Assembly: GCA_964593885.1 (NCBI GenBank)
Contig: CAZQKK010000001.1
Span: 425,929 to 489,928, forward strand
DNA from: an uncultured Candidatus Saccharibacteria bacterium
GTDB taxonomy: Bacteria > Patescibacteriota > UBA1384 > CAILIB01
DNA length: 64,000 nucleotides
Direction of reading: 5' to 3'
A model generated the notes under the pieces. That model was not told where the DNA came from and searched no databases. It saw only the letters and a list, made by a program, of their open reading frames with translations. Each line of letters begins with the position of its first letter. Within the stretch, counting starts at the first letter, position 1. Both the position numbers and the translations under genes were made by a program. This document shows positions 4,374 through 64,000 of the stretch, one piece after another.

Positions 4374-4709
4374 ATGTTCGTGCGAGATATTCAAGGAATG
4401 GGGCTCACGGAAAAAGAGGCAAAGTTCTACCTCACCAGCTTACGGCTAGGGCCTTCAAGCATGCAGGTGCTTGCGCGAAAGGCCAAGATTGATAGGGGAA
4501 CCGCCTACCACGTTGCCATGACACTCGAGCAGAAGGGGCTCTTCGCCCAGCTTTCGCAGGGGAAGCGTCCGCTCTTTGGCGTTACCAACCCTCGCAGCCT
4601 CTTCAGTTTTGTAGAAACACGCCGGCAGGAAGTTGAGCAGCAGTTCAAGACAGCCGAGAGCATGATTGGAGACTTGGAAGAGCTCTACAGTACTGGTTTT
4701 TCCTCCTAA
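4374..4709 (+). CDS. small HTH transcriptional regulator (TrmB/MarR-like winged helix)
   Basis: ORF 4350 (GTG)..4709; ATG at 4374 fits the upstream promoter better; LTEKEAKFYLTSLRLGPSSMQVLARKAKIDRGTAYHVAMTLEQKGL resembles the N-terminal TrmB-type HTH. Confidence 0.5.
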   Translation: MFVRDIQGMGLTEKEAKFYLTSLRLGPSSMQVLARKAKIDRGTAYHVAMTLEQKGLFAQLSQGKRPLFGVTNPRSLFSFVETRRQEVEQQFKTAESMIGDLEELYSTGFSS

Positions 4710-4731
4710 AAATTGCTAAGGTGAGCCTCAC

Positions 4732-5586
4732 ATGAACGTGAGAATCTCACCTGATTTTGTAGTATCTCGTCTGCGCCAACTGGGCGTGAGAGCCCAGCAC
4801 TCACTGGGGCAAAACTTCCTCGTAGATGAGGAAGTACTCTTAGAGGTAGTGAGAGGGGGCGAAGTTACACCTACAGACACGGTAGTTGAGGTGGGTCCAG
4901 GGCTTGGGGTGCTCACTGAGGCGCTCCTCGCAACTGGAGCTACTGTCCATGCCCTCGAGTTTGACCCCTTGATGCTCAGCGTCTTAGAATCTGATTTTGC
5001 CGAGGCAATTGCTAGCGGAAAACTCATCCTCCACCAGGGAGATGCCGTGAAGCTGCTGCCATACCTCATCCAGACACTCCCAGAGTACAAGGTGGTGGCA
5101 AACGTGCCATACCAGATAACCACGCCACTCTTCCAGGTTCTCCTGCAAGATGCCGGGGCACATCGCCCCAAGCTCCTTTCGCTCCTCGTGCAGCGCGAAC
5201 TTGCAGAGCGTCTCTGTGCGCGGGAGAAAACGGGTGAGCGAAGCTACCTCTCGGTGCTTGCCCAGTACTTCACCACACCTTATATTTTGAGGAAGGTTGC
5301 GCCTACCTCCTTTATGCCTGCTCCCAAAGTGGATTCAGCGGTTCTGAAGCTGGTGGCCAAACCAGTTCTTTCGCTCCCGGCTGGTGAAGAGGTGAAGTTC
5401 TTCAAGTTTGTGAAGGCCGCTTTCCAGGAGCGAAGGAAACAGCTCAAAAACGTCCTTGCTGGCATGAAGGCAATGCCAACGGCTGAAGTTGGCGAGTGGC
5501 TGGTGTCCCACAACCTCCCGGTAACGGTGAGATCACAGGAACTGAGCGAAACCGATTGGCTAAACCTCTACCATGACAAAATCTAG
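4732..5586 (+). CDS. rsmA: 16S rRNA (adenine1518/1519-N6)-dimethyltransferase RsmA/KsgA
   Basis: HSLGQNFLVD motif, SAM-binding VVEVGPGLGVLT, NVPYQITTPL motif. Confidence 0.9.
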   Translation: MNVRISPDFVVSRLRQLGVRAQHSLGQNFLVDEEVLLEVVRGGEVTPTDTVVEVGPGLGVLTEALLATGATVHALEFDPLMLSVLESDFAEAIASGKLILHQGDAVKLLPYLIQTLPEYKVVANVPYQITTPLFQVLLQDAGAHRPKLLSLLVQRELAERLCAREKTGERSYLSVLAQYFTTPYILRKVAPTSFMPAPKVDSAVLKLVAKPVLSLPAGEEVKFFKFVKAAFQERRKQLKNVLAGMKAMPTAEVGEWLVSHNLPVTVRSQELSETDWLNLYHDKI

Positions 5587-7856: not shown

Positions 7857-8650
7857 TTGATACCCACTGTCACCTCCAGTATCCCGGTCTCTCCGAGGAT
7901 GTCGAAGGTGTGCTAGAGCGTGCCTCTGAGGTTGGAGTGAGCAAGATCATCGTGCCGGGAACAGGTGTGACCACCTCAGAAGAAGCTCTCAAGCTATCGG
8001 AGATGTACCCCAACGTCTACGCAGCCCTCGGGGTACACCCGGTGGACGATGAAGCAACCCCAAACGATGCTGCTGCCATCCGCTCACTCTTTGAACAGGG
8101 GCAGGGAAAGGTTGTGGCTGTGGGCGAAGTTGGTATGGACTACTACCACCTCCCAACTGGTGATGCAGAGATTGCTATAGCAAAAGAAGAGCAGGTAGAA
8201 CGGCTCTACCAGTTTACCCAGCTAGCACTTGAACTCCAGCTTCCACTCATCATCCACAGTAGGGAGTGTTTTAGTGACCTCTATGCGAGGTTGCGCGAGT
8301 GGGCACCTAACCACAAGACGGTGATCCACTGCTTTGTTGGCAACCAAGAGGAGGCTGATATGTGGCTTGACCTTGGCTACCACCTTTCATTTACCAACAT
8401 CCTGACCTACCCAAAAAATACTGAACTGCGCGAAGTAGCAAAGCGTGTACCTGCCGGAAGGTTCATGCTTGAAACTGATGCTCCTTTCCTGCCACCAAGA
8501 AGCCGTAGAGGGGGGTTGTGCGAGCCAGCTGATGTGTACTCAGTTGCTGAGTGCCTCGCTGAGGTGAGGGGTGAGACGCTTGCGAGTATTGCAGATCAGA
8601 CTACCGCAACCGCAGAGTCTTTCTTTGGGCTAAACGGGCTCGTGAGATGA
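7853..8650 (+). CDS. tatD: TatD family metal-dependent hydrolase/deoxyribonuclease
   Basis: MIDTHCHLQ N-terminus, GEVGMDYY, IIHSRE motifs; ATGA overlap with the metG stop. Confidence 0.85.
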   Translation: MIDTHCHLQYPGLSEDVEGVLERASEVGVSKIIVPGTGVTTSEEALKLSEMYPNVYAALGVHPVDDEATPNDAAAIRSLFEQGQGKVVAVGEVGMDYYHLPTGDAEIAIAKEEQVERLYQFTQLALELQLPLIIHSRECFSDLYARLREWAPNHKTVIHCFVGNQEEADMWLDLGYHLSFTNILTYPKNTELREVAKRVPAGRFMLETDAPFLPPRSRRGGLCEPADVYSVAECLAEVRGETLASIADQTTATAESFFGLNGLVR

Positions 8651-9798
8651 AGATTGTCGTTGCGATGTCAGGTGGTGTAGATTCCTCGGTTGCCGCTGCT
8701 CTCCTCCAGAAAGAGGGACACGAGGTGCAAGGGGTGTTCATGAAGAACTGGTCTCCACTAGACGGGCAGAGCCTCACTGACTGTCCCTGGGAAGTAGACC
8801 AGGCAGATGCTGAAGCAGTCTGTAACCATCTTGGTATCCCATTTCGCTCAGTCAATTTTGAGAGGCAGTACCGAGAAAAGGTGGTGGACAACCTGGTTAG
8901 CGAGTACGCCGCAAGTAGGACACCTAACCCTGATGTTCTCTGTAACAAAGAGATAAAGTTCTCAGCATTCTGGGAGGTGGCAAAAGAGCTAGGAGCAGAA
9001 GCCATTGCCACAGGTCACTACGTAAGGCTCGAGAACGGGGAGCTGCTCCGAGGTGTTGATCCTGGGAAAGACCAGTCCTACTTCCTCTACTCACTCACCG
9101 GTGAGCAGCTTTCACATGCGCTATTTCCCATTGGGAAGTACCCAAAACCTGAGGTTAGGAAGCTGGCGGAGGAGTTTGGACTCCCAACCGCCTCAAAGAA
9201 AGATAGCCAGGGGATCTGTTTCATTGGCCACCTTAACCTGAAAGATTTCCTTGAGGGCGAGCTAGGTTCACAACCAGGTGAGCTCAAGTTGCTTCCGAAA
9301 GGCGGGGGAAACCTTGCCGAAAGGATGGCAAATGCAGTAGTTGTGGGTGAACACCGGGGAGCCGCTTTCTACACCACGGGTGAGCGAATGGGAGGTTACC
9401 TCGACAATCGACTGTACAGCAAGGCCCGGGGCGAAACCGACGTAAAGCACACGTACGTTGTCTCAAAAGATGCCTTGAGTAATACGGTGTACGTTACCGA
9501 TGATCATGACGATAGCGACCTCTTTTCCCAGGTTATTTTTCTAGAAAGTAGCTACGTATGTGGAGGAAGTGGAGAAGTATCGCTGGTCGATATAACATCT
9601 CAAATTCCCGTTGAAGAGCTTACAGCGCAACTTCGCTACCACCAGCAACCACTGGGTGTAAAGCGGGTTGCGTACGAAGCTGACAAGGTAGTTGTTGAGC
9701 TCTCCGAAGCTGCCTGGGCAGCATCACCTGGACAATCACTTGTCTTGTACCGTGGAGATCGAGTACTTGGGGGAGGAGTGGTATGCGCTACCAGGTAA
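8647..9798 (+). CDS. mnmA: tRNA-specific 2-thiouridylase MnmA
   Basis: PP-loop VAMSGGVDSSVAA, catalytic Cys region and ATGHY motif (IATGHYVR). Confidence 0.9.
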   Translation: MKIVVAMSGGVDSSVAAALLQKEGHEVQGVFMKNWSPLDGQSLTDCPWEVDQADAEAVCNHLGIPFRSVNFERQYREKVVDNLVSEYAASRTPNPDVLCNKEIKFSAFWEVAKELGAEAIATGHYVRLENGELLRGVDPGKDQSYFLYSLTGEQLSHALFPIGKYPKPEVRKLAEEFGLPTASKKDSQGICFIGHLNLKDFLEGELGSQPGELKLLPKGGGNLAERMANAVVVGEHRGAAFYTTGERMGGYLDNRLYSKARGETDVKHTYVVSKDALSNTVYVTDDHDDSDLFSQVIFLESSYVCGGSGEVSLVDITSQIPVEELTAQLRYHQQPLGVKRVAYEADKVVVELSEAAWAASPGQSLVLYRGDRVLGGGVVCATR

Positions 9799-11816
9799 CA
9801 GACCCTGTAAGGATACTTGATGGTGTAGGCCCGCGGCTTGCCGAGGGCCTCGCCCTCATGGGCATTGAGACCATAGGCGACCTGATGTTTTGGAAGCCAC
9901 GAGCCTACCTAGATGGTAGCCAAGTTAAAGCTGTGAGTGAGGTAAAACCAGGTGAGACGGTTGCCATGAAGCTCACCGTTCATACAATGAAACAGGATAG
10001 GGTGAGAGGCGGGAGGTTGCCACTCATCAGGGTGGTAGCAGGAGATGAGACAGGTGAGATTGGGCTCCAGTGGTTCAACCAACCCTACCTTGCAGCAAAA
10101 CTGCAGCCAGGTAGGGAGTATGTGGTAATGGGGAAAGTTGGCTGGTTCAACGGTCACAAGGTAATGGTTTCACCACGGCTCGAAGAGAGTGGGAGAATCA
10201 TCCCCCGCTACCCTCAGACAAAGCTGGTAACCTCAACGTTTCTCGGAAAACTGGTGTCTCAAGTACTTGAGACAACTGAAGTACCTGAGGTACTTCCCAA
10301 TGAGGTGACGCTTGAGCGCGGTCTACTCCCTATTGCTACAGCTCTCAAGTACCTCCACCAACCTTTGAGCATGTCTGAGGTAGAGGAGGCGTCAAAGACG
10401 CTGGCAGTCTGTGAGGCATGGCAGTTCTTCAGGTCTCTCAGCCCAGCTGAAACCTACGCCAAGCAGGAGGGTAGGAAGATTCCCGCTGATGCTGAGTTCC
10501 TCGCGGCAACCGTGGCAAAGCTCCCATTCTCACTTACGGCAGGACAGAAGCGGATAGTCTGGGATGCGGCACTCCAGATGCAAGATGGCAAGGTAATGAC
10601 CAGGCTCCTCAATGGCGACGTGGGTTCGGGGAAGACTGTTGTGGCATCTCTCCTCGCCTGTTTAGTGGCGAAGGCGGGATACCAGAGCATTTTCATCGCC
10701 CCAACTGAGATTCTGGCAGTGCAGCACTACCAGAGCATTGGAAAACTCTTCCAAGAAGTTGGCTTACGGGTAGCACTGTGGACGGGTAGCAAGAAGGAGG
10801 AGGCAGCACTGGGCGAAGCAGACCTCGTTATTGGCACCCATGCTCTCCTCAATGGGGGGTACCGGGTGGGTTCTGTAGCGTTGGTAGTGATTGATGAGCA
10901 GCACCGGTTTGGTGTGAGGCAGCGGTCGCTCTTACGCGATGCACACCAGGTTCCACCACATGTCTTGAGTATGACGGCAACCCCAATTCCAAGAAGCTTG
11001 GCGCTCACCCTCTTTGCGGGTCTTGAGGTTTCGTTCTTGCGCGAAAAGCCAGTAGGGAGGCAGCCGATAGTTACTACGCTAGTGGGGAGTGCAGCGGCAC
11101 GATCTCGCATGGAGGAGGTAATTCTTACAGAAGTCTCACAGGGGCGACAGGTGTTTGTAATCTGCCCAGCAATTACAGAATCTGAGGATGAAGGAGAGCC
11201 TGAAGGGCTTCTCCACCTGTTCTCGGGAGGTGAGGGTATTGCTAAGAAGGCTGTTGAACAGGAAGCTACCAGGCTCCAGGGGAGATTTCCTCAACTCAAG
11301 ATTGGGGTAGTTCACGGTAAGCTGACGAGCCAGAAGAAAGCCTCAGTGATGCAGATGATGGCTGAAGGACAGGTTGATATCCTGGTTGCAACAACAGTAG
11401 TAGAGGTTGGGGTAGATGTGCCAAATGCGAGCGTCCTGGTGGTAGAGAACGCCGAGAGGTTTGGTCTCGCCCAGCTCCACCAGCTTAGGGGTAGGGTTGG
11501 GAGAGGTAGTGCAGCGAGCTACTGCTTCCTGGTGTCCGGCAGCTCAAGTCTCCAAGCACGTGAGAGGTTGCAGGTACTTGTGGACAGTGATGATGGTTTT
11601 GAGATTGCTGAAGCTGATCTCGCTCAACGAGGTCCAGGTGACCTGACAGGTATCTCGCAGGCAGGATTGCCAGAATTTAGGTTTGCAACGTTGTCACGGT
11701 TGGATCAGTTGGTTGAGGTACGAGACAGTCTGCATGCTTACCAACAACTACATCCTGAATACAAGCTCTCTGAAGGACAAATCACCTATTCCGGAATTGA
11801 AGTAAAGTTGGAATAG
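9783..11816 (+). CDS. recG: ATP-dependent DNA helicase RecG
   Basis: N-terminal wedge domain, Walker A GDVGSGKT, DEQHRFGV, TATPIPRS, and the HQLRGRVGRG motif. Confidence 0.9.
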   Translation: MRYQVTDPVRILDGVGPRLAEGLALMGIETIGDLMFWKPRAYLDGSQVKAVSEVKPGETVAMKLTVHTMKQDRVRGGRLPLIRVVAGDETGEIGLQWFNQPYLAAKLQPGREYVVMGKVGWFNGHKVMVSPRLEESGRIIPRYPQTKLVTSTFLGKLVSQVLETTEVPEVLPNEVTLERGLLPIATALKYLHQPLSMSEVEEASKTLAVCEAWQFFRSLSPAETYAKQEGRKIPADAEFLAATVAKLPFSLTAGQKRIVWDAALQMQDGKVMTRLLNGDVGSGKTVVASLLACLVAKAGYQSIFIAPTEILAVQHYQSIGKLFQEVGLRVALWTGSKKEEAALGEADLVIGTHALLNGGYRVGSVALVVIDEQHRFGVRQRSLLRDAHQVPPHVLSMTATPIPRSLALTLFAGLEVSFLREKPVGRQPIVTTLVGSAAARSRMEEVILTEVSQGRQVFVICPAITESEDEGEPEGLLHLFSGGEGIAKKAVEQEATRLQGRFPQLKIGVVHGKLTSQKKASVMQMMAEGQVDILVATTVVEVGVDVPNASVLVVENAERFGLAQLHQLRGRVGRGSAASYCFLVSGSSSLQARERLQVLVDSDDGFEIAEADLAQRGPGDLTGISQAGLPEFRFATLSRLDQLVEVRDSLHAYQQLHPEYKLSEGQITYSGIEVKLE

Positions 11817-13959: not shown

Positions 13960-14045
13960 GCCTGGGTGGTGGAATGGTAGACACGCTAGCCTTAGGAGCT
14001 AGTGCCCGCAAGGGCGTGGAGGTTCGAGTCCTCTCTCAGGTACCA
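13960..14045 (+). tRNA. tRNA-Leu (anticodon UAG) with encoded 3' CCA
   Basis: manual cloverleaf: 7-bp acceptor stem GCCTGGG/CTCAGGT (two G-U pairs), 3-bp D stem, anticodon stem CTAGC/GCTAG with loop CTTAGGA (anticodon TAG), long variable arm GCCC-GCAA-GGGC, T arm GGAGG-TTCGAGT-CCTCT, discriminator A, CCA. Confidence 0.85.
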
Positions 14046-57350: not shown

Positions 57351-57896
57351 TTAGGAGCCCGATACGCCGGCAAATTCCGGCTGAGAAGTGCTGCCTCGCA
57401 GTTGTTGCTGCGGGGGCTGCGCCTTTACCAGTGCCCGACTGGCGTTAAAGGTGCAGCTGAGGACGACGTTGCCCTTACCGTCCACCGTGAATGCATGTCC
57501 CTCGATGTCGTTTGCGTTTCGTTTGAATGCGAAGTAGCAGTTCTCCGCTGACCGGTTGTGGCCAGGGGGAGTGAATGGGCCGAAGTTGATCCTCGGCAGC
57601 AGATCGTGCTGCTTGATCTCGTCAAGGTTTCCGACCATGGTGGTCAAGAGGCGCTTGAGAGTAGCCTCGTCCTTGACGTTGCCCTGGATCTGAATGGACC
57701 CTTCGAGTGCGCGATTGCCGTGCATGAGAACCTGGGAGTGGCCAAAGCCATCTGGGTTCTCGCTGCTTTCGTACCTGCGAACTTTATCAGTGCTGATGTT
57801 GACTTCCTTTCGGAAAGCCAGACGACGGCCCGTGCCGTGTGATGCCTGTACCACTTGTGATGGCACAATGAAACTTGTGGTTTCTTTTTTACACAT
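57351..57896 (-). CDS. hypothetical cytoplasmic protein (181 aa)
   Basis: ORF with GGGGG SD-like sequence 10 nt upstream of the ATG and its own terminator; no recognised motif. Confidence 0.5.
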   Translation of the reverse strand: MCKKETTSFIVPSQVVQASHGTGRRLAFRKEVNISTDKVRRYESSENPDGFGHSQVLMHGNRALEGSIQIQGNVKDEATLKRLLTTMVGNLDEIKQHDLLPRINFGPFTPPGHNRSAENCYFAFKRNANDIEGHAFTVDGKGNVVLSCTFNASRALVKAQPPQQQLRGSTSQPEFAGVSGS

Positions 57897-59878: not shown

Positions 59879-61042
59879 CTAGTTACCCATCTGATTGAGT
59901 AGTGGGCAGAGCACCTGGTTGATGTAGTCCTGAGCCCAGTAGTTGTCCTTGGGCATGCCACCTGAGTTGAATACCACGGATATCAGCTGTCCGTTTGCAC
60001 GGTACATGATGGCTGCATTGCAACCTTCAAGGCTGCCACCGTGCTGGAGGGTGTAGCCACCGTTTGACTCAACAGTCACGCTGAACCCAAGTCCAGTGTA
60101 GTTGCGAGACCCTCTGGCGTATGCCGGAGGAATCACCACTTGAGCCTGGAGTTCAGCACTTATCAGCTTTGGCAGCGCCTGCTGGAATTGGATGAGTGCG
60201 CGAGCACTCATCACCCATCCACCAGATGAGTCCATCTCCCCAAGGGTATAACACCCATAGGGGAAAGGTACTCGCTTTAGGTTGTCGCCCGGGTAGAGTG
60301 ACATGCCCACCCTGCCTGGCAGATCCCAGTAGCGGGTTTCTCCTTCACGAAGGTTCTTGCTGTGGCCAACGTAGGCCTCAGTAGCGGAGATCCCAGCCGG
60401 AGCCAGAATTGCCGCCCGGACGTAGTCCTCGTAGCCCCTGCCGGAGACTTTCTCGATGATCTTTCCAAGGATACGAAATCCAATGTTGGAGTACGAGAAG
60501 CGGGTTCCAGGTGTTGAGACGAGGGATTCTTTCTCAAAGGCAAGTAGTACTTGGATATCCTTTGGGATCGGAAGTGGGGTGCCATACCGTTTTGAGGTTG
60601 TGACCTGTTCGTTGAGGAACGTGTCACTTCCCCAACCACCAGTGTGCTGGAGTAGGTGCCTCACCGTAACGGTGCGCATCTCTGCTTGCCTTGGCTTGAT
60701 TGGGTGCTCGCGGTCCTTGTTGAGGATATCGAGGACGAAATCGTCAAGATTCAGCTTGCCATCTCGCACGAGGCAGAGAACGGCGGTGGTGGTATACGTC
60801 TTGGAAACGCTGGCCACCCGGTTTGGAGTGGTGGCGAGGAAGGGATCTCCCTTCTCGTTTCGTACCCCAAATGGGACGGTGACGGTATCAGAACCGTTGG
60901 TAACGATGAGCGCTCCGCCATGTGCGCCCTTACTCTGGGCGTACTGGCGGAAGGATGATTCGATGGCCGATGTCTCAGCCGGGGAGAACCCCGTGTGTGG
61001 GAGACCGACCATTGCAATGAACGCAAGGGCAGATGTAATCAT
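59879..61042 (-). CDS. secreted serine hydrolase of the beta-lactamase/class C PBP family
   Basis: signal peptide; SxxK motif (VASVSKTYTT), YxN-like and HGG-like (LQHGGSLEG) regions. Confidence 0.8.
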   Translation of the reverse strand: MITSALAFIAMVGLPHTGFSPAETSAIESSFRQYAQSKGAHGGALIVTNGSDTVTVPFGVRNEKGDPFLATTPNRVASVSKTYTTTAVLCLVRDGKLNLDDFVLDILNKDREHPIKPRQAEMRTVTVRHLLQHTGGWGSDTFLNEQVTTSKRYGTPLPIPKDIQVLLAFEKESLVSTPGTRFSYSNIGFRILGKIIEKVSGRGYEDYVRAAILAPAGISATEAYVGHSKNLREGETRYWDLPGRVGMSLYPGDNLKRVPFPYGCYTLGEMDSSGGWVMSARALIQFQQALPKLISAELQAQVVIPPAYARGSRNYTGLGFSVTVESNGGYTLQHGGSLEGCNAAIMYRANGQLISVVFNSGGMPKDNYWAQDYINQVLCPLLNQMGN

Positions 61043-61155
61043 AAGAACCTCAGATTGTCAGGCCTCTTTCGCGGGGTGCGGAAAAGGGAGCAAAATCTGC
61101 GGTGATAGTAGGGTATTTGCCCCCAAAAAGCAAGCAGGAGTACACTAAGTACATG

Positions 61156-61668
61156 AAAGCTACAGGAACGTACAGTACCGAGAGTTTGCGTAAGGTGGTT
61201 ACCGTTACCATCTGCGTATTTGCCATGACAACAATGTTTGCTCACACCTTCCCAACACTCATTGGTTTTTCTTCCTTGAGAAAGCTTACCGATGCAAGCC
61301 TGCAAACCCTGGGAATTCACGAAAAGTGGAGGATGTTTACCTCAAAAGACACGTCAGCAGTACCACTCAAAATGGAGCTCATCTACACCAGTGGAAAGAC
61401 ACAAACGGTGGTGCTACGAGCAGAAAGGGTGAGCTTTTCGAGGAGTGCTGAGAATCGTTTCAGTGAAACGGTCCTCTGGAATACGTTCTCGCCTCTTACG
61501 GGGTCTTTCCTTGAGGCAAGCTGCAAACGGTACACGAGTACTAATGATCGGCTGGTAAGTGCATCGCTCAACCAGGCAACCATCATGCTTCCCTCATCTC
61601 TTACCGCAAGTGAAAGCAAGATGCCTCTGCAGTACAAGCAGGTTAGGAACCTCCAATGTCCCAAATAG
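61156..61668 (+). CDS. hypothetical exported protein, candidate SdpA-like partner of the downstream HTTM protein
   Basis: ATG at 61156 within ORF 61102..61668; N-terminal hydrophobic segment VVTVTICVFAMTTMFAHT; overlaps the HTTM-1 gene start by 13 nt; SdpA-like call is by genomic context only. Confidence 0.45.
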   Translation, partial: KATGTYSTESLRKVVTVTICVFAMTTMFAHTFPTLIGFSSLRKLTDASLQTLGIHEKWRMFTSKDTSAVPLKMELIYTSGKTQTVVLRAERVSFSRSAENRFSETVLWNTFSPLTGSFLEASCKRYTSTNDRLVSASLNQATIMLPSSLTASESKMPLQYKQVRNLQCPK

Positions 61669-62576
61669 TCGAAAACATTCGTGGTTCACTGGCAAAGCTG
61701 CTCAACGAGGCATTCTTTTCGCCTTTTAAGGAAAACCAACTTAGGCTTTTCAGGGGAGCGGTTGGAGTTGCCCTGATTATTACCTCACTCTCTTGGGTCC
61801 AATCTTTCAGATGGTTTTTCGCCCCAGACGGGTACGTTCCGCTTTCGCTGGCGCCAAGCCTTGGGAAGTACACGGTAAGCTGGCTCCACCTTTTCAACTA
61901 CGAGGCGCTCTCGGGTTTGCCTTTCCTCTATGCTGGCTACCTCCTCATGCTAGTTGCTGCAGGTTTCCTCGTTATTGGGAAGTACGAGAAATATGCAGCT
62001 CCTGTAGCCTACATTCTCTTACTTAGCTTCCTGGGACGAAACCCAGCATTGAGCTATGGCGGCACCGATGTGCTCCAGTTCTTGCTCCTAGCGGTAGTTC
62101 TCCTCAGCCTCCCCGGCAAGAAGCAGGCTGAAAAGTGGCCGATTGTCCTGGTTCAGTTCCAGTTTGCCGTTCTCTACCTATCGGCAGCAATCAGTAAGAT
62201 GCAGGTTCCCGAGTGGTTTAACGGCACCAAGATGTTCTTTGGGATGTCAGATCCAACCTTTTCCTACATCAACCCAAACTTTCTCCTAAGCGTACCGGCA
62301 CTCCTTGCCTTCATCACGTGGTACGGGTTCATGTCAGAGATTGGCTTCACCTTCCTCATTTGGTCAAAGGGTACGAGGAGGTTTGCACTGGCTATGGTAG
62401 TACTCCTGCACGTTGGGATTGCGCTGACCATGAACGTACACCTATTCAGTGAGGTGATGCTCCTAGGCTTTACCGCACTCTTAACTGAAAGTGAATCAAC
62501 GTGGCTACTTGAGCGACTTCGCGCAGCGAAAACCGGTGTAGTTTCTGTTGTACGAAGGTCCAAGCGCAAGGTCTAG
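61656..62576 (+). CDS. HTTM-domain (vitamin-K-dependent gamma-carboxylase-like / SdpB-like) polytopic membrane protein, copy 1
   Basis: 306 aa, about 8 TM helices; conserved C-terminal block FTFLIWSKGTRRFALAMVVLLHVGIALTMNVHLFSEVML; paralogous to the partial ORF at 63521..64000. Confidence 0.75.
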   Translation: MSQIVENIRGSLAKLLNEAFFSPFKENQLRLFRGAVGVALIITSLSWVQSFRWFFAPDGYVPLSLAPSLGKYTVSWLHLFNYEALSGLPFLYAGYLLMLVAAGFLVIGKYEKYAAPVAYILLLSFLGRNPALSYGGTDVLQFLLLAVVLLSLPGKKQAEKWPIVLVQFQFAVLYLSAAISKMQVPEWFNGTKMFFGMSDPTFSYINPNFLLSVPALLAFITWYGFMSEIGFTFLIWSKGTRRFALAMVVLLHVGIALTMNVHLFSEVMLLGFTALLTESESTWLLERLRAAKTGVVSVVRRSKRKV

Positions 62577-63524
62577 CGAGTAGATTCCTGAGTTTTCGTT
62601 GTTTGCCCAGGCGCCACCCCGCGTAACCGCCTTGAATGGTGAGGTTGGGGTAATGAGATTGTTGTATTCCCAAGACCAACCTGGGTTGAGTGATATTTTG
62701 CCAATGCCGTTTACTGAGGTAAGGGTGCTATCAGGGAGCTGGCTACCATCCATCTTGCCATAGTCTTTCACCTCGTTGTATTCAATCCAGCGGGTCTTTG
62801 TGATGGGGAAAGTTGCCTTGATGCCGTTACCGGTAAGGCCGTCAGAGTCAATTTCAAACGTTTCTCCAGTACCGGTTTTCTCTTCAAAAATGTAGGGATC
62901 TGACATCCACTCCCAGAGGTTTCCAGTGAGGTCCCAGAGTACCTCGCCGTTACTGAGGACGGTAGTGCGTGAGAGGCTGCGGCTTGGTTCACCCGGAACG
63001 TAGGGGGTAACCCAGTTTCCGGCGGTGCCTGTGTAGCTGAGGTTGCTCCTCAGTGAGCATGAGGCGTTTTCTGGGGTATCAAGACCAGAAGAGAGGTTGC
63101 ACTTGGCAAGAGATGGTGAGACATCAGGAACAGCCTGTACAAACTTTTGCCCAGCTGTGTTGCCATTGGTGAGCTGGGGGCCGGGTTCGCTGCTGAGGTC
63201 ATTGATGGGAGTTTTCAAGATGTCAGCCGCAATGGTCATCCACTCACTGCTACTGAGGAGGTGGTAGCCAGTCCCAAGGTCTGCGCAGGCTTGTTTCGCC
63301 CCAGGTGAGGTTTGGAAATTCCAGGGGAAATCGCCCAGTTTGCTGACGGGGAGACCTGAAGGACTCTTTTGAGCTTCAGTTCGCATAACGCAGAAGCCTC
63401 CTCCTGGCACCTCAATGTAGCCCTCTGGGCATCCGGTAGTATCTGGTTGAGGCCTCGTTGCCAACCACCCAGCCGTCACAGCAACTAGGATGAGGAAGAG
63501 GAGGTTGCTTTGCTTGCCAGTCAT
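62505..63524 (-). CDS. membrane-anchored formylglycine-generating-enzyme (FGE/SUMF1) family protein
   Basis: N-terminal signal-anchor; FGE-sulfatase domain hallmarks GNLWEWMSDPY, RGGAWANNENSG, GFRCAK; ATG overlaps the stop of the upstream HTTM gene (ATGA). Confidence 0.8.
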   Translation of the reverse strand: MTGKQSNLLFLILVAVTAGWLATRPQPDTTGCPEGYIEVPGGGFCVMRTEAQKSPSGLPVSKLGDFPWNFQTSPGAKQACADLGTGYHLLSSSEWMTIAADILKTPINDLSSEPGPQLTNGNTAGQKFVQAVPDVSPSLAKCNLSSGLDTPENASCSLRSNLSYTGTAGNWVTPYVPGEPSRSLSRTTVLSNGEVLWDLTGNLWEWMSDPYIFEEKTGTGETFEIDSDGLTGNGIKATFPITKTRWIEYNEVKDYGKMDGSQLPDSTLTSVNGIGKISLNPGWSWEYNNLITPTSPFKAVTRGGAWANNENSGIYSLDLALGPSYNRNYTGFRCAKSLK

Positions 63525-64000
63525 GCTCGGCGCAGTTTCCGCTGGGCTTTAGCGCCTTTGTAAACTCGCTTGAGGAATGCAGCTGCAGCTACGATGTCAT
63601 CCTCCAAGAGGAAGATGGTAGCAATGGAGAGCATGGTCTCAGCAAAGTAGCTGACGTTGAGGGTAATGAGGCTACTACCGTGGATGATAAGTAAGCCGAA
63701 TAGGGCAAACCTTCGGGTTTCCTTGAACCAAACGAAGAATGGGAAAGATACCTCTAGGAGGAGCGATCCCCAGGTCATGAGCCCCATAATGAGCGGGAAG
63801 GCGGCAAGCCAGGTGAAGTTCATGGTGGCGTACTCGAAGTTGAGGACTTTCCCAGCTTCAGTTCCTTGGACAAACCAGGCATCTGCTCGCACCTTGGCAA
63901 AGCCTGCAAAGAGGTAAACGAAGGCAAAGTTGAGCTGAATGAGCCTTGCCGACCATCCGGCAACCATGCCTGCTTTGTCGGGTTGGGGGAGCATTAAGTA
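63521..64000 (-). CDS. HTTM-domain membrane protein, copy 2 (3' part only; N-terminus beyond window end)
   Basis: FPFFVWFKETRRFALFGLLIIHGSSLITLNVSYFAETML aligns with HTTM copy 1; reading frame stays open upstream of the listed Met to the window edge. Confidence 0.7.
   Translation of the reverse strand, partial: YLMLPQPDKAGMVAGWSARLIQLNFAFVYLFAGFAKVRADAWFVQGTEAGKVLNFEYATMNFTWLAAFPLIMGLMTWGSLLLEVSFPFFVWFKETRRFALFGLLIIHGSSLITLNVSYFAETMLSIATIFLLEDDIVAAAAFLKRVYKGAKAQRKLRRA

What the first reader, a model, noticed from the sequence alone, without database searches (positions are those of the whole stretch)
61102..64000. Cluster of two paralogous HTTM (gamma-carboxylase-like) membrane proteins, an SdpA-like partner and an FGE/SUMF1-family protein
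Two divergent copies of an HTTM-domain polytopic membrane protein sit in convergent orientation within 3 kb. HTTM is the fold of eukaryotic vitamin-K-dependent gamma-glutamyl carboxylase and of Bacillus SdpB, which matures the SdpC toxin. Copy 1 is preceded by, and overlaps, a 171-aa exported protein in the position SdpA occupies in sdpAB systems. Copy 2 is translationally coupled to a membrane-anchored FGE-sulfatase-domain protein (GNLWEW / RGGAW / GFRCA hallmarks). In bacteria, FGE domains oxidise a Cys/Ser to formylglycine in secreted substrates or act as substrate-binding modules. Co-occurrence of two HTTM enzymes with an FGE-family protein suggests a membrane-associated machinery that modifies an exported peptide or protein. 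No substrate or precursor gene is visible; it may lie just beyond the window end or elsewhere.
Basis: partly seen in the sequence, partly recalled or inferred. Interest (0 to 1): 0.8.

Follow-up and report, generated by a model that had tools for sequence, protein, structure and literature searches.

The report
Split carboxylase-like membrane enzymes plus lectin-fold protein
A small, probably symbiotic bacterium carries two copies of a two-part membrane enzyme related to the human vitamin-K carboxylase, one copy co-expressed with a surface binding protein that only looks like a sulfatase-activating enzyme; this is a new variant of a poorly understood known system, not a new modification pathway.

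Summary
Window 61153-64000 holds a small membrane-anchored protein (A1) overlapping HTTM1. Convergent to these lie an FGE-motif protein and HTTM2, which the window end cuts.

Relatives show what lies beyond the end: the rest of HTTM2, and before it a second small protein (A2) homologous to A1. The locus is therefore two paralogous [small subunit + HTTM] pairs, and three pairs in one relative.

A1/A2 are not recognised by the Pfam or NCBIfam SdpA or DUF5819 models. Profile comparison links them to DUF5819, the single-pass partner always encoded just upstream of HTTM genes in Bacillota and Actinomycetota. The HTTM proteins keep the carboxylase Lys218/Trp223/Asp263/Phe299 equivalents but not its Glu-binding Asn159/His160.

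The "FGE" protein lacks the catalytic cysteine pair. Its closest sequence and fold relatives are C-type-lectin variable proteins of diversity-generating retroelements (TaqVP, Mtd), and several homologues carry real TR/VR pairs and reverse transcriptases. In this clade the variable-region equivalent is the most conserved part of the gene, and no retroelement is nearby. It is best read as a fixed ligand-binding surface protein.

HTTM and lectin genes are linked only in this narrow lineage. The enzyme's substrate and chemistry remain unknown.

The parts
59879..61042 (-). Serine hydrolase of the beta-lactamase/DD-peptidase fold (PF00144), 387 aa, with SVSK, YSN and HGG motifs. It is transcribed divergently from A1. 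Its membership of the module is only suggested.
   Evidence: Pfam 156.5 bits. It is adjacent in every relative and lies between HTTM pairs in L014. A PF00144 gene also ends a DUF5819-HTTM-DCC operon on a Streptomyces avidinii plasmid.
61153..61668 (+). A1, a 171-aa single-pass (N-in) membrane protein with an extracytoplasmic domain of about 135 aa. It carries a QxWRMF motif, an ENRF motif and two invariant Cys. It is a divergent DUF5819-like partner subunit of HTTM1.
   Evidence: ORF; start fixed; TM helix; invariant residues. Homology to A2: hhalign 94.7%. Homology to DUF5819: hhalign 89.7%, E=1.9e-6, and 80% over 94 columns. HMM cross-hits. No Pfam or NCBIfam hit.
61656..61668 (+). 13-nt overlap between the A1 stop and the HTTM1 start, implying translational coupling.
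   Evidence: Coordinates. The same overlap type occurs in L001, L006, L008 and L010. DUF5819-HTTM pairs on plasmids show similar overlaps.
61656..62576 (+). HTTM1, a 306-aa polytopic membrane protein of the HTTM family. It retains Y174, K181, W187, E228, H252 and F264.
   Evidence: Pfam HTTM 39.1 bits. Profile match to human GGCX at E=3e-9, with K181, W187, E228 and F264 aligned to K218, W223, D263 and F299.
62505..62576 (.). 72-nt convergent overlap of the 3' ends of HTTM1 and the lectin-fold gene.
   Evidence: Coordinates. An overlap of 63-87 nt is kept in L001, L006, L008, L010 and L014.
62505..63524 (-). 339-aa protein with an N-terminal signal peptide or anchor and a C-type-lectin fold of the FGE subtype. 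It lacks the FGE catalytic cysteines and is a non-diversified relative of DGR variable proteins.
   Evidence: Marginal Pfam FGE-sulfatase match. Best PDB sequence match is TaqVP 5VF4, E=1.4e-6. Foldseek top hits are TaqVP and Mtd. Homologues with RT, Avd and TR/VR. The VR-equivalent is conserved.
63521..63524 (-). ATGA overlap between the HTTM2 stop and the start of the lectin-fold gene, implying translational coupling.
   Evidence: Sequence read. Overlaps of 4-22 nt occur in all relatives.
63521..64000 (-). C-terminal 159 codons of HTTM2. The full protein is 330 aa in the relatives. The N-terminus and the A2 partner gene lie beyond the window end.
   Evidence: Pfam HTTM 43.4 bits. Full gene and the upstream A2 gene seen in L001, L006, L008 and L010. 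Catalytic residues retained.

Best explanation
The locus encodes two paralogous two-subunit membrane enzymes. Each is made of a single-pass, DUF5819-like subunit (A1, or A2 just beyond the window) and a polytopic HTTM subunit (HTTM1, HTTM2). The two genes of each pair are translationally coupled.

By analogy with the predicted DUF5819-HTTM complex and with human GGCX, the small subunit's extracytoplasmic domain would cap the HTTM active site, in the position GGCX fills with its fused lumenal clamp. This step is inferred.

The HTTM subunits keep the Lys-Trp-acidic-Phe constellation that GGCX uses to deprotonate a hydroquinone and trap CO2. They do not keep its glutamate-binding residues. They are therefore probably active, quinone-type oxidase/carboxylase-like enzymes acting on a non-Gla substrate at the outer face of the membrane. 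This too is inferred.

The second pair is co-transcribed with a membrane-anchored C-type-lectin-fold protein. That protein is not an FGE enzyme. It is a fixed, non-diversified member of a family otherwise used as DGR-diversified ligand binders. It most likely acts as a surface ligand-binding or adhesin protein. It may be a client of the HTTM2 complex or may work alongside it (inferred, moderate to low confidence).

The host is probably a small-genome Patescibacteria-type bacterium (inferred).
For: **Gene structure and conservation.** Searches show 2-3 [small + HTTM] pairs in every lineage, always with overlapping stop and start codons.

**Partner homology.** A1 and A2 are homologous (hhalign 94.7%). 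The partner family matches DUF5819 at hhalign 89.7%, E=1.9e-6 and at 80% over 94 columns. The partner HMM hits a Macrococcus DUF5819 protein at E=2.9e-5. A DUF5819 HMM hits the A1-family member P0037 at 28.1 bits.

**Typical DUF5819-HTTM arrangement.** DUF5819 lies directly upstream of HTTM in 12 plasmid loci from 2 phyla.

**Complex model from the literature.** A published AlphaFold 3 model places DUF5819 where GGCX has its clamp (bioRxiv 10.64898/2026.08.19.745780).

**Catalytic residues.** HTTM invariant residues align to GGCX K218, W223, D263 and F299. The roles of those residues come from PMC12647623.

**Lectin-fold assignment.**

**DGR links in homologues.**

**No diversification in this clade.**

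**HTTM2-lectin coupling.**
Against: - No direct Pfam or NCBIfam hit of A1 or A2 to DUF5819 or SdpA. Part of the hhalign score comes from the TM helix.
- The A1 model is only moderate (pLDDT 69) and found no informative fold match. No complex prediction could be run.
- The whole region, including TIM, PGK, Tig and ClpP, is syntenic in all relatives, so conserved neighbourhood alone is weak evidence of function.
- The HTTM-lectin link is absent everywhere outside this clade. None of 39 distant lectin loci has an HTTM gene, and none of the 12 plasmid DUF5819-HTTM loci inspected has an FGE-type lectin gene annotated in its 2-3 kb flanks.
- Patescibacteria generally lack quinone biosynthesis (general knowledge, not tested here), which makes a hydroquinone cofactor uncertain.
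- No substrate was identified.
Confidence: 0.55

Rival explanations
1. The 339-aa protein is a formylglycine-generating (or related oxidising) enzyme that acts together with two HTTM enzymes on one exported Cys/Ser-containing precursor.
For: The Pfam FGE-sulfatase model scores just above its cut-off. The GNLWEW, RGGAW and GFRCA framework motifs are present. The gene is translationally coupled to HTTM2.
Against: - Only a 17-residue stretch matches the Pfam model.
- There is no Cys between RGGAW and GFRCA, where the catalytic pair of FGE lies (sequence; residues C336/C341 are recalled from the literature on human FGE and were not checked with a tool here).
- FGE structures score far worse (E=0.07-2) than the DGR variable protein TaqVP (E=1.4e-6).
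- Foldseek ranks TaqVP and Mtd first.
- Homologues are DGR targets.
- No sulfatase or CxPxR precursor appears in about 7 kb beyond the window end in relatives.
Confidence: 0.05
2. An sdpABC/yitPOM-type toxin system. The [partner + HTTM] pairs mature a secreted antimicrobial peptide, and the 165-169-aa secreted protein upstream of A2 (or an unseen gene) is the precursor.
For: - SdpAB and YitPO are the only genetically characterised [small + HTTM] pairs, and they make secreted toxins (PMC6818787).
- In Bacillota and Actinomycetota plasmids a signal-peptide-bearing, Gly/Ala-rich protein of 100-120 aa precedes DUF5819-HTTM in 8 of the 12 loci, sometimes with an S8 protease nearby.
- Relatives of the window have a fast-evolving secreted protein directly upstream of A2.
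Against: - HTTM1 scores 52.6 bits against the SdpB model, whose cut-off is 178.4. No SdpA model matches.
- The 165-169-aa protein has no Gly/Ala-rich amphipathic segment and no resemblance to the plasmid precursors.
- No immunity-like gene was noticed.
- The cluster sits in a stable housekeeping neighbourhood of a reduced genome, with 2-3 pairs. It is not on a mobile element.
Confidence: 0.12
3. Neighbours without a shared function. The HTTM pairs act on something unrelated, such as a lipid, a quinone or another envelope protein. The lectin-fold protein is an independent adhesin that merely shares a transcript.
For: - The whole 15-kb region is syntenic in all relatives, so linkage may be inherited rather than selected.
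- Outside the clade the two families never co-occur: 0 of 39 loci, and none.
- L070 shows tandem HTTM pairs with no lectin gene in the 3.2 kb held.
Against: The stop/start overlap of HTTM2 and the lectin gene is kept in six lineages despite about 50% protein divergence. The convergent 63-87-nt overlap with HTTM1 is also kept.
Confidence: 0.22

Closest known systems
DUF5819 (PF19136) + HTTM (PF05090) gene pairs of Bacillota and Actinomycetota, with or without a DCC1-like domain
   Same: - A single-pass protein of 170-250 aa is encoded immediately upstream of, and often overlapping, an HTTM gene.
- The QxW(R)xF motif after the TM helix and an NRF motif are shared, and the profiles match.
- The HTTM residues Y, K, W, H and F are invariant in both groups.
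   Different: - Pfam's DUF5819 model does not detect A1 or A2.
- There is no DCC1-like domain or gene.
- There is no small Gly/Ala-rich precursor gene.
- Here the pairs are duplicated or triplicated.
- One pair is followed by a lectin-fold gene.
- An acidic residue (E228) is kept where the plasmid HTTMs have Q, L or S.
Bacillus subtilis SdpA/SdpB (and the paralogues YitP/YitO)
   Same: A small protein plus an HTTM membrane protein are encoded as an overlapping or adjacent pair. The pair is needed to mature an exported protein (PMC6818787). HTTM1 has a sub-threshold match to the SdpB model.
   Different: The SdpB model cut-off is not reached. No SdpA model matches. There is no SdpC-like precursor and no immunity or regulator genes in the flanks seen.
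[quoted passage not shown]
   Same: The HTTM transmembrane core matches at E=3e-9. The equivalents of Lys218 (general base), Trp223, Asp263 and Phe299 (CO2 trap) are conserved.
   Different: The proteins are only 306-330 aa and have no fused lumenal clamp or C-terminal domain. The Glu-binding Asn159/His160 are replaced: GGTD in HTTM1, DGN in HTTM2. There are no Gla-type substrates or propeptides, and cofactor availability is unknown.
DGR variable proteins with the FGE-subtype C-type-lectin fold (TaqVP, TvpA, Mtd)
   Same: These are the best sequence and fold matches. The RGGxW...GFRCA frame that encloses the variable region is the same. Homologues at 24-33% identity have RT, Avd and TR/VR with adenine-specific mismatches.
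   Different: There is no TR copy and no RT in the 64-kb window or in the relatives' flanks. The VR-equivalent is the most conserved part of the gene and is identical across strains. The gene is operon-coupled to an HTTM gene.
Formylglycine-generating enzyme (FGE/SUMF1) and its inactive paralogue pFGE/SUMF2
   Same: The fold subtype and framework motifs are shared. There is a marginal Pfam match and a weak match to SUMF2 1Y4J.
   Different: The catalytic cysteine pair is absent. A long insertion (residues about 213-297) lies between the framework motifs. There is no sulfatase context.

Membership tests
HTTM domain family (PF05090) | Match to the Pfam HTTM model above the gathering score | tested here: met
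   HTTM1 scores 39.1 bits, the HTTM2 fragment 43.4 bits and full HTTM2 from L001 42.9 bits, all against a cut-off of 27.7.
HTTM domain family (PF05090) | Conserved Lys/Trp/His/Phe core residues of the family | tested here: met
   Y174, K181, W187, H252 and F264 are invariant in 18 HTTM proteins from CPR-type, Bacillota, Actinomycetota and haloarchaeal loci. They align to GGCX K218, W223 and F299.
[quoted passage not shown] | Glutamate-substrate binding residues Asn159/His160 (and Tyr395 of the lumenal domain) | tested here: not met
   The profile alignment places SYGGTD (HTTM1) and SFDGNA (HTTM2) opposite SWNNHS. There is no fused lumenal domain, so there is no Tyr395 equivalent.
[quoted passage not shown] | Hydroquinone-dependent carboxylation or epoxidation activity | not testable with these tools
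   This needs biochemistry. Quinone biosynthesis genes could not be surveyed because only 64 kb of the genome is available.
SdpAB toxin-maturation system | SdpB-subfamily model TIGR04033 above its cut-off | tested here: not met
   52.6 bits against a cut-off of 178.4.
SdpAB toxin-maturation system | An SdpA-family partner recognised by the Pfam SdpA or NCBIfam SdpA models | tested here: not met
   No hit for A1, A2 or any of the 16 partner-family members, even at E<=10.
SdpAB toxin-maturation system | An adjacent SdpC-like secreted precursor with a hydrophobic toxin segment | tested here: not met
   None within about 7 kb of flanks in relatives. The 165-169-aa secreted protein does not resemble such precursors.
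DUF5819 (PF19136) HTTM-partner family | Match to the Pfam DUF5819 model | tested here: not met
   0 of 16 partner-family members match, whereas 10 of 10 plasmid DUF5819 proteins do.
DUF5819 (PF19136) HTTM-partner family | Remote homology at the profile level | tested here: met
   hhalign 89.7%, E=1.9e-6 and 80%, E=1.4e-5 over 94 columns. The partner HMM hits a Macrococcus DUF5819 protein at E=2.9e-5. The DUF5819 HMM hits P0037 at 28.1 bits.
DUF5819 (PF19136) HTTM-partner family | N-terminal TM helix plus an extracytoplasmic domain, encoded directly upstream of and coupled to an HTTM gene | tested here: met
   TM helix. Gene order and overlaps, compared.
Formylglycine-generating enzyme (FGE) | FGE-sulfatase domain match | tested here: inconclusive
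   24.7 bits against a cut-off of 23.3, from one 17-residue stretch. The precomputed hits for orthologues are 'faint' or absent.
Formylglycine-generating enzyme (FGE) | Catalytic cysteine pair between the RGGS and GFRCA motifs (human Cys336/Cys341; established knowledge) | tested here: not met
   The sequence RGGAWANNENSGIYSLDLALGPSYNRNYTGFRCA contains no Cys before GFRCA. This holds for all 8 clade members in alignment A6.
DGR variable protein | C-type-lectin fold (FGE subtype) with a C-terminal RGGxW...GFR frame | tested here: met
   Best PDB sequence match is TaqVP 5VF4 (identity of the entry confirmed in PMC6328139). Foldseek top hits are TaqVP and Mtd. The model is only moderate (pLDDT 60).
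DGR variable protein | A cognate template repeat, a reverse transcriptase and adenine-directed variability of the VR | tested here: not met
   No second copy of the 3' end in the window. No RT in the window or in relatives' loci, and the VR-equivalent is invariant among strains and is the most conserved segment. A remote DGR elsewhere in the genome cannot be excluded.

The most novel reading that the evidence does not exclude
In an ultrasmall epibiotic bacterium, split GGCX-like enzymes (a DUF5819-like cap plus an HTTM core) covalently modify a surface protein. Candidates are the co-translated lectin-fold adhesin and the neighbouring secreted protein, and the modification could be a carboxylation. 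The hydroquinone cofactor would be scavenged from the host cell membrane. This would be a bacterial Gla-like modification tied to host attachment. The lectin scaffold would have been recruited from the DGR variable-protein repertoire and then frozen.
Probability: 0.1. Interest if true: 0.8.

Novelty: new variant of a known kind. Interest (0 to 1): 0.42.

Why it matters
Bacterial HTTM proteins are widespread, but only SdpB/YitO (toxin maturation) and MloH (malonomycin) have any assigned role. The idea that a small DUF5819 subunit supplies the missing "clamp" of the carboxylase in trans rests so far on one 2026 structure-prediction preprint.

This locus extends that two-subunit logic to a very divergent partner family that current models miss. 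The family sits in a lineage with a tiny genome that nevertheless keeps 2-3 copies, which argues for an important envelope function.

The analysis also corrects a tempting mis-annotation. An "FGE-sulfatase" hit in such genomes is more likely a lectin-fold binding protein from the DGR-target family than an enzyme.

The finding does not by itself reveal the chemistry or the substrate, and the organism is uncultured. Its practical value is as a lead for comparative and heterologous work.

Tried and rejected
- **Extending the source contig.** Exact look-ups of the window's own proteins failed. The 88%-identical relative L001 and more distant relatives were used instead.
- **Finding the lineage in species-representative genomes.** Scans with HTTM1 and with trigger factor both returned nothing. 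A metagenome scan with A2 also returned nothing. The 14-sequence HTTM alignment was too diverse to scan with. Taxonomy therefore stays inferred from a source label (BH11PAT4), contig sizes of 0.50-0.55 Mb and the pilin-rich context.
- **Relatives of A1.** A word-indexed search and an exhaustive HMMER search found only a handful: 2 proteins, then 8 of 1.84 billion representatives.
- **Active DGR target.** I tested whether the lectin gene is currently diversified. There is no TR-like copy in the window, no RT, and no VR variability. Rejected.
- **Strains apparently lacking A1.** L004 and L005 seemed to lack it, but their DNA is identical to L001. This was a gene-calling artefact.
- **The partner-position protein of L017.** This 164-aa protein showed no profile similarity to A1/A2.
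- **Promoter and terminator scan.** Uninformative.
- **GTG start at 61102.** Rejected because L001 has a stop codon there.

Full report
**1. What is in the window**

Four genes occupy 61153-64000.
- A1 runs 61153-61668 (+) and is 171 aa.
- HTTM1 runs 61656-62576 (+) and is 306 aa. It overlaps A1 by 13 nt.
- A 339-aa protein with GNLWEW, RGGAW and GFRCA motifs runs 62505-63524 (-). Its 3' end overlaps the 3' end of HTTM1 by 72 nt.
- The last 159 codons of a second HTTM gene run from 63521 to the window end (-). Its stop overlaps the start of the 339-aa gene as ATGA.

Pfam HTTM is matched above threshold by both HTTM ORFs (39.1 and 43.4 bits against 27.7). FGE-sulfatase is matched only marginally by the 339-aa protein: 24.7 against 23.3 bits, from a 17-residue stretch. 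A1 matches nothing, including the SdpA models. A PF00144 serine hydrolase (59879-61042, -) lies divergently upstream of A1.

**2. What lies beyond the window end**

The source contig is an NCBI record of 497 kb. It could not be fetched by exact look-up. Relatives carry the same cluster:
- L001, with HTTM1 88% identical
- L006, L008 and L010, at about 60%
- the more divergent L014

.

In all of them HTTM2 is 329-335 aa. It is preceded, with a 3-10-nt gap, by a 179-189-aa gene (A2), and further upstream by a 165-169-aa secreted protein. On the other strand follow a 1351-1379-aa protein with SdrD_B repeats and a pilin-like protein with an N-methylation motif.

HTTM1 and HTTM2 are paralogues at 26% identity, E=1e-24. 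A1 and A2 show no BLASTP similarity. As profiles they are homologous: hhalign 94.7%, E=5.8e-8, with a shared LGIxxxW-M motif, an R..NE/ENR motif and two invariant cysteines.

The unit of the locus is therefore a [small single-pass protein + HTTM] pair, present twice. L014 has three pairs. L070 has two pairs in tandem next to clpP.

**3. What the small proteins are**

A1 has an N-terminal TM helix followed by an alpha/beta domain of about 135 aa. The family is very narrow. A profile search of 1.84 billion representatives gave eight hits.

A 2026 preprint predicts that DUF5819 proteins form a complex with the adjacent HTTM protein. These proteins have an N-terminal TM helix followed by a domain. 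In the predicted complex, the DUF5819 domain sits where human GGCX has its lumenal clamp. MloH is a fused version of the same arrangement (10.64898/2026.08.19.745780).

I collected DUF5819-HTTM loci from plasmids of Bacillus, Virgibacillus, Macrococcus, Streptomyces, Kitasatospora and Curtobacterium. In all 12 loci, DUF5819 lies directly upstream of HTTM, often with a 4-nt overlap.

Several comparisons link the A1/A2 family to DUF5819:
- The A1/A2 profile (16 sequences) matches a 10-sequence DUF5819 profile at hhalign 89.7%, E=1.9e-6. The TM helix and the QNW(R)LF / QQWRMF motif are in register.
- The A1 subfamily alone matches at 80% over 94 columns, including the NRF motif.
- A plain HMM of the partner family hits the Macrococcus DUF5819 protein at E=2.9e-5.
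- A DUF5819 HMM hits the A1-family member P0037 at 28.1 bits.

Pfam's own DUF5819 model hits none of the 16 members, while it hits all ten plasmid proteins.

I conclude that A1 and A2 are a divergent branch of the DUF5819-type HTTM partner.

**4. Whether the HTTM proteins look active**

A profile of 14 HTTM sequences matches human GGCX at E=3e-9. The residues line up as follows.

| HTTM1 residue | GGCX residue | GGCX role |
|---|---|---|
| K181 | Lys218 | General base |
| W187 | Trp223 | Stacks on Lys218 |
| E228 | Asp263 | Adjacent to Lys218 |
| F264 | Phe299 | CO2 trap |
| SYGGTD | Asn159/His160 | Binds the substrate glutamate |

The roles come from PMC12647623. HTTM2 has DGN at the position of GGT. 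Y174, K181, W187, H252 and F264 are invariant across 18 HTTM proteins of all sources. The acidic residue is kept only in this clade and in the related metagenomic HTTM-DCC protein of L017.

The inference is that the quinol-activating half of the active site is conserved and the substrate half is not.

**5. What the FGE-family protein is**

Homologues at 24-33% identity lie next to DGR components. One is beside a bAvd gene (L011). Another is beside an RT and an Avd-like gene (L013), where a 113-nt repeat pairs the gene's 3' end with a template whose adenines are the mismatched positions.

Of 36 further distant homologues from metagenomes, six have a DGR-type RT and five of those a TR-like copy. 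None has an HTTM, partner or DUF5819 gene.

A family profile matches the solved DGR variable protein TaqVP (5VF4) at E=1.4e-6, compared with 0.003 for SUMF2 and 0.07 for FGE. The AlphaFold model has pLDDT 60 overall, with a framework core above 80. By Foldseek it is closest to TaqVP and then to Mtd.

The segment between RGGAW and GFRCA is where FGE has its catalytic cysteines and where DGR proteins have their variable region. Here it contains no cysteine.

In distant homologues this segment is hypervariable. In the window's clade it reads ANNENSGIYS(L/V)(D/N)LALGPSY(N/S/Q)RNY almost without change. It is identical in five strain-level contigs, and it is the least diverged part of the gene between the window and L001: 4 differences in the last 102 nt against 15-45 per 102-nt bin elsewhere. 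There is no TR copy or RT in the window or in the relatives' flanks.

The protein is therefore a lectin-fold binder of the DGR-target type that is not being diversified. It is not an FGE enzyme.

**6. How the parts may work together**

*Shown:*
- The gene pairs and their overlaps.
- The homologies described above.
- The conserved catalytic residues.
- Operon coupling of HTTM2 to the lectin gene in six lineages.

*Inferred:*
- Each small subunit caps its HTTM partner to form a split GGCX-like enzyme that faces outward.
- The enzyme acts on an exported client by quinol-type chemistry.
- The lectin-fold protein is a surface binder. It may be that client, or it may act next to the enzyme.

The PF00144 hydrolase may belong to the module. 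It lies between HTTM pairs in L014. A PF00144 gene also closes a precursor-DUF5819-HTTM-DCC operon on a Streptomyces avidinii plasmid. That is a single outside example.

*Caveats:*
- The entire region is syntenic among relatives, so linkage may be inherited rather than selected.
- The HTTM-lectin link is unknown outside this clade.
- No complex prediction was possible.
- The quinone supply in such organisms is doubtful.

**7. Comparison with known systems and novelty**

The closest known kind is the DUF5819-HTTM pair, with SdpAB as its only genetically studied relative (PMC6818787). The differences are:
- a partner family too divergent for current models
- duplication or triplication of the pair
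- no DCC1-like domain
- no small Gly/Ala-rich precursor, which 8 of the 12 plasmid loci have
- a lectin-fold gene in the operon

No paper in the searched library links HTTM with Patescibacteria, and DUF5819 appears in only one. I rate this a new variant of a known kind, of moderate interest.

Noticed in passing
window 62505-62576; also L001 10850-10921, L006 10853-10915, L008 10847-10921, L010 8219-8305, L014 3606-3680: The 3' ends of HTTM1 and the convergent lectin-fold gene overlap by 63-87 nt in every lineage. The last 21-29 codons of each gene are therefore dual-coded on opposite strands. This could permit antisense interference between the two operons. It also adds constraint on the VR-equivalent segment.
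   Followed up: partly
L013 7424-7536 (VR) and 9624-9736 (TR), RT 8351-9547 (-): This is a complete DGR next to a distant homologue (P0019), and the mismatches fall at template adenines. The TR and VR lie on the strand opposite to the RT gene. Further repeats (4704-5003 with 10296-10595, and others) link a 394-aa gene with a 1387-aa gene, which suggests paralogous targets.
   Followed up: partly
L018 1781-2116, L019 520-852, L023 745-1050 and 1298-1603, L024 435-740 and 774-1082, L025 1514-1873, L026 1558-1917, L028 1585-1917: In Bacillota and Actinomycetota plasmids, the gene(s) just upstream of DUF5819-HTTM encode proteins of 100-120 aa. Each has a signal peptide, a Gly/Ala/Trp-rich amphipathic core and a conserved C-terminal F(D/G)(L/R/K/Q) end. 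Some loci have two copies, and some have an S8 protease upstream. They look like precursors of secreted peptides, analogous to SdpC.
   Followed up: partly
L071 2893-3729 (Streptomyces avidinii plasmid NZ_CP108617.1 200392-201228): A PF00144 serine hydrolase follows DUF5819-HTTM-DCC1 in the same orientation, with a 14-nt gap. This echoes the PF00144 gene next to A1 in the window (25% identity over 158 aa). It is a single case.
   Followed up: partly
L001 13523-14032 (-), L006 13542-14051 (-), L008 13503-14000 (-): A secreted protein of 165-169 aa lies directly upstream of A2. It evolves very fast (21-30% identity among orthologues whose neighbours are 60-80% identical) and has no family match. 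It is a possible client of the HTTM2 complex.
   Followed up: partly
L006 14151-18290 and 18301-19110; L008 14129-18184 and 18194-18982; L014 236-1051 (-): Next to the cluster lie a protein of about 1350 aa with SdrD_B repeats and a type-IV-pilin-like protein (N-methylation motif). L014 also has a pilin-like gene beside the A2-type gene. The neighbourhood is rich in cell-surface proteins.
   Followed up: no
HTTM alignment column of HTTM1 E228: The residue aligned with GGCX Asp263 is Glu in all HTTM paralogues of this clade and in the related metagenomic HTTM-DCC protein of L017. It is Gln, Leu or Ser in the DUF5819-linked HTTMs of Bacillota and Actinomycetota and in a haloarchaeal HTTM.
   Followed up: no
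window 57351-57896 (-): A 181-aa ORF lies between pgk and tig. Relatives have genes of 189-215 aa with no family match at the same place (two in L001 and L006, plus a 437-aa gene in L006). Function unknown.
   Followed up: no
whole window; genome-contig scans: Neither HTTM1 nor the well-conserved trigger factor of this lineage found any relative among 185,579 species-representative genomes. The lineage seems absent from that collection. Rfam found only one tRNA in the 64 kb, at 13960-14042.
   Followed up: partly
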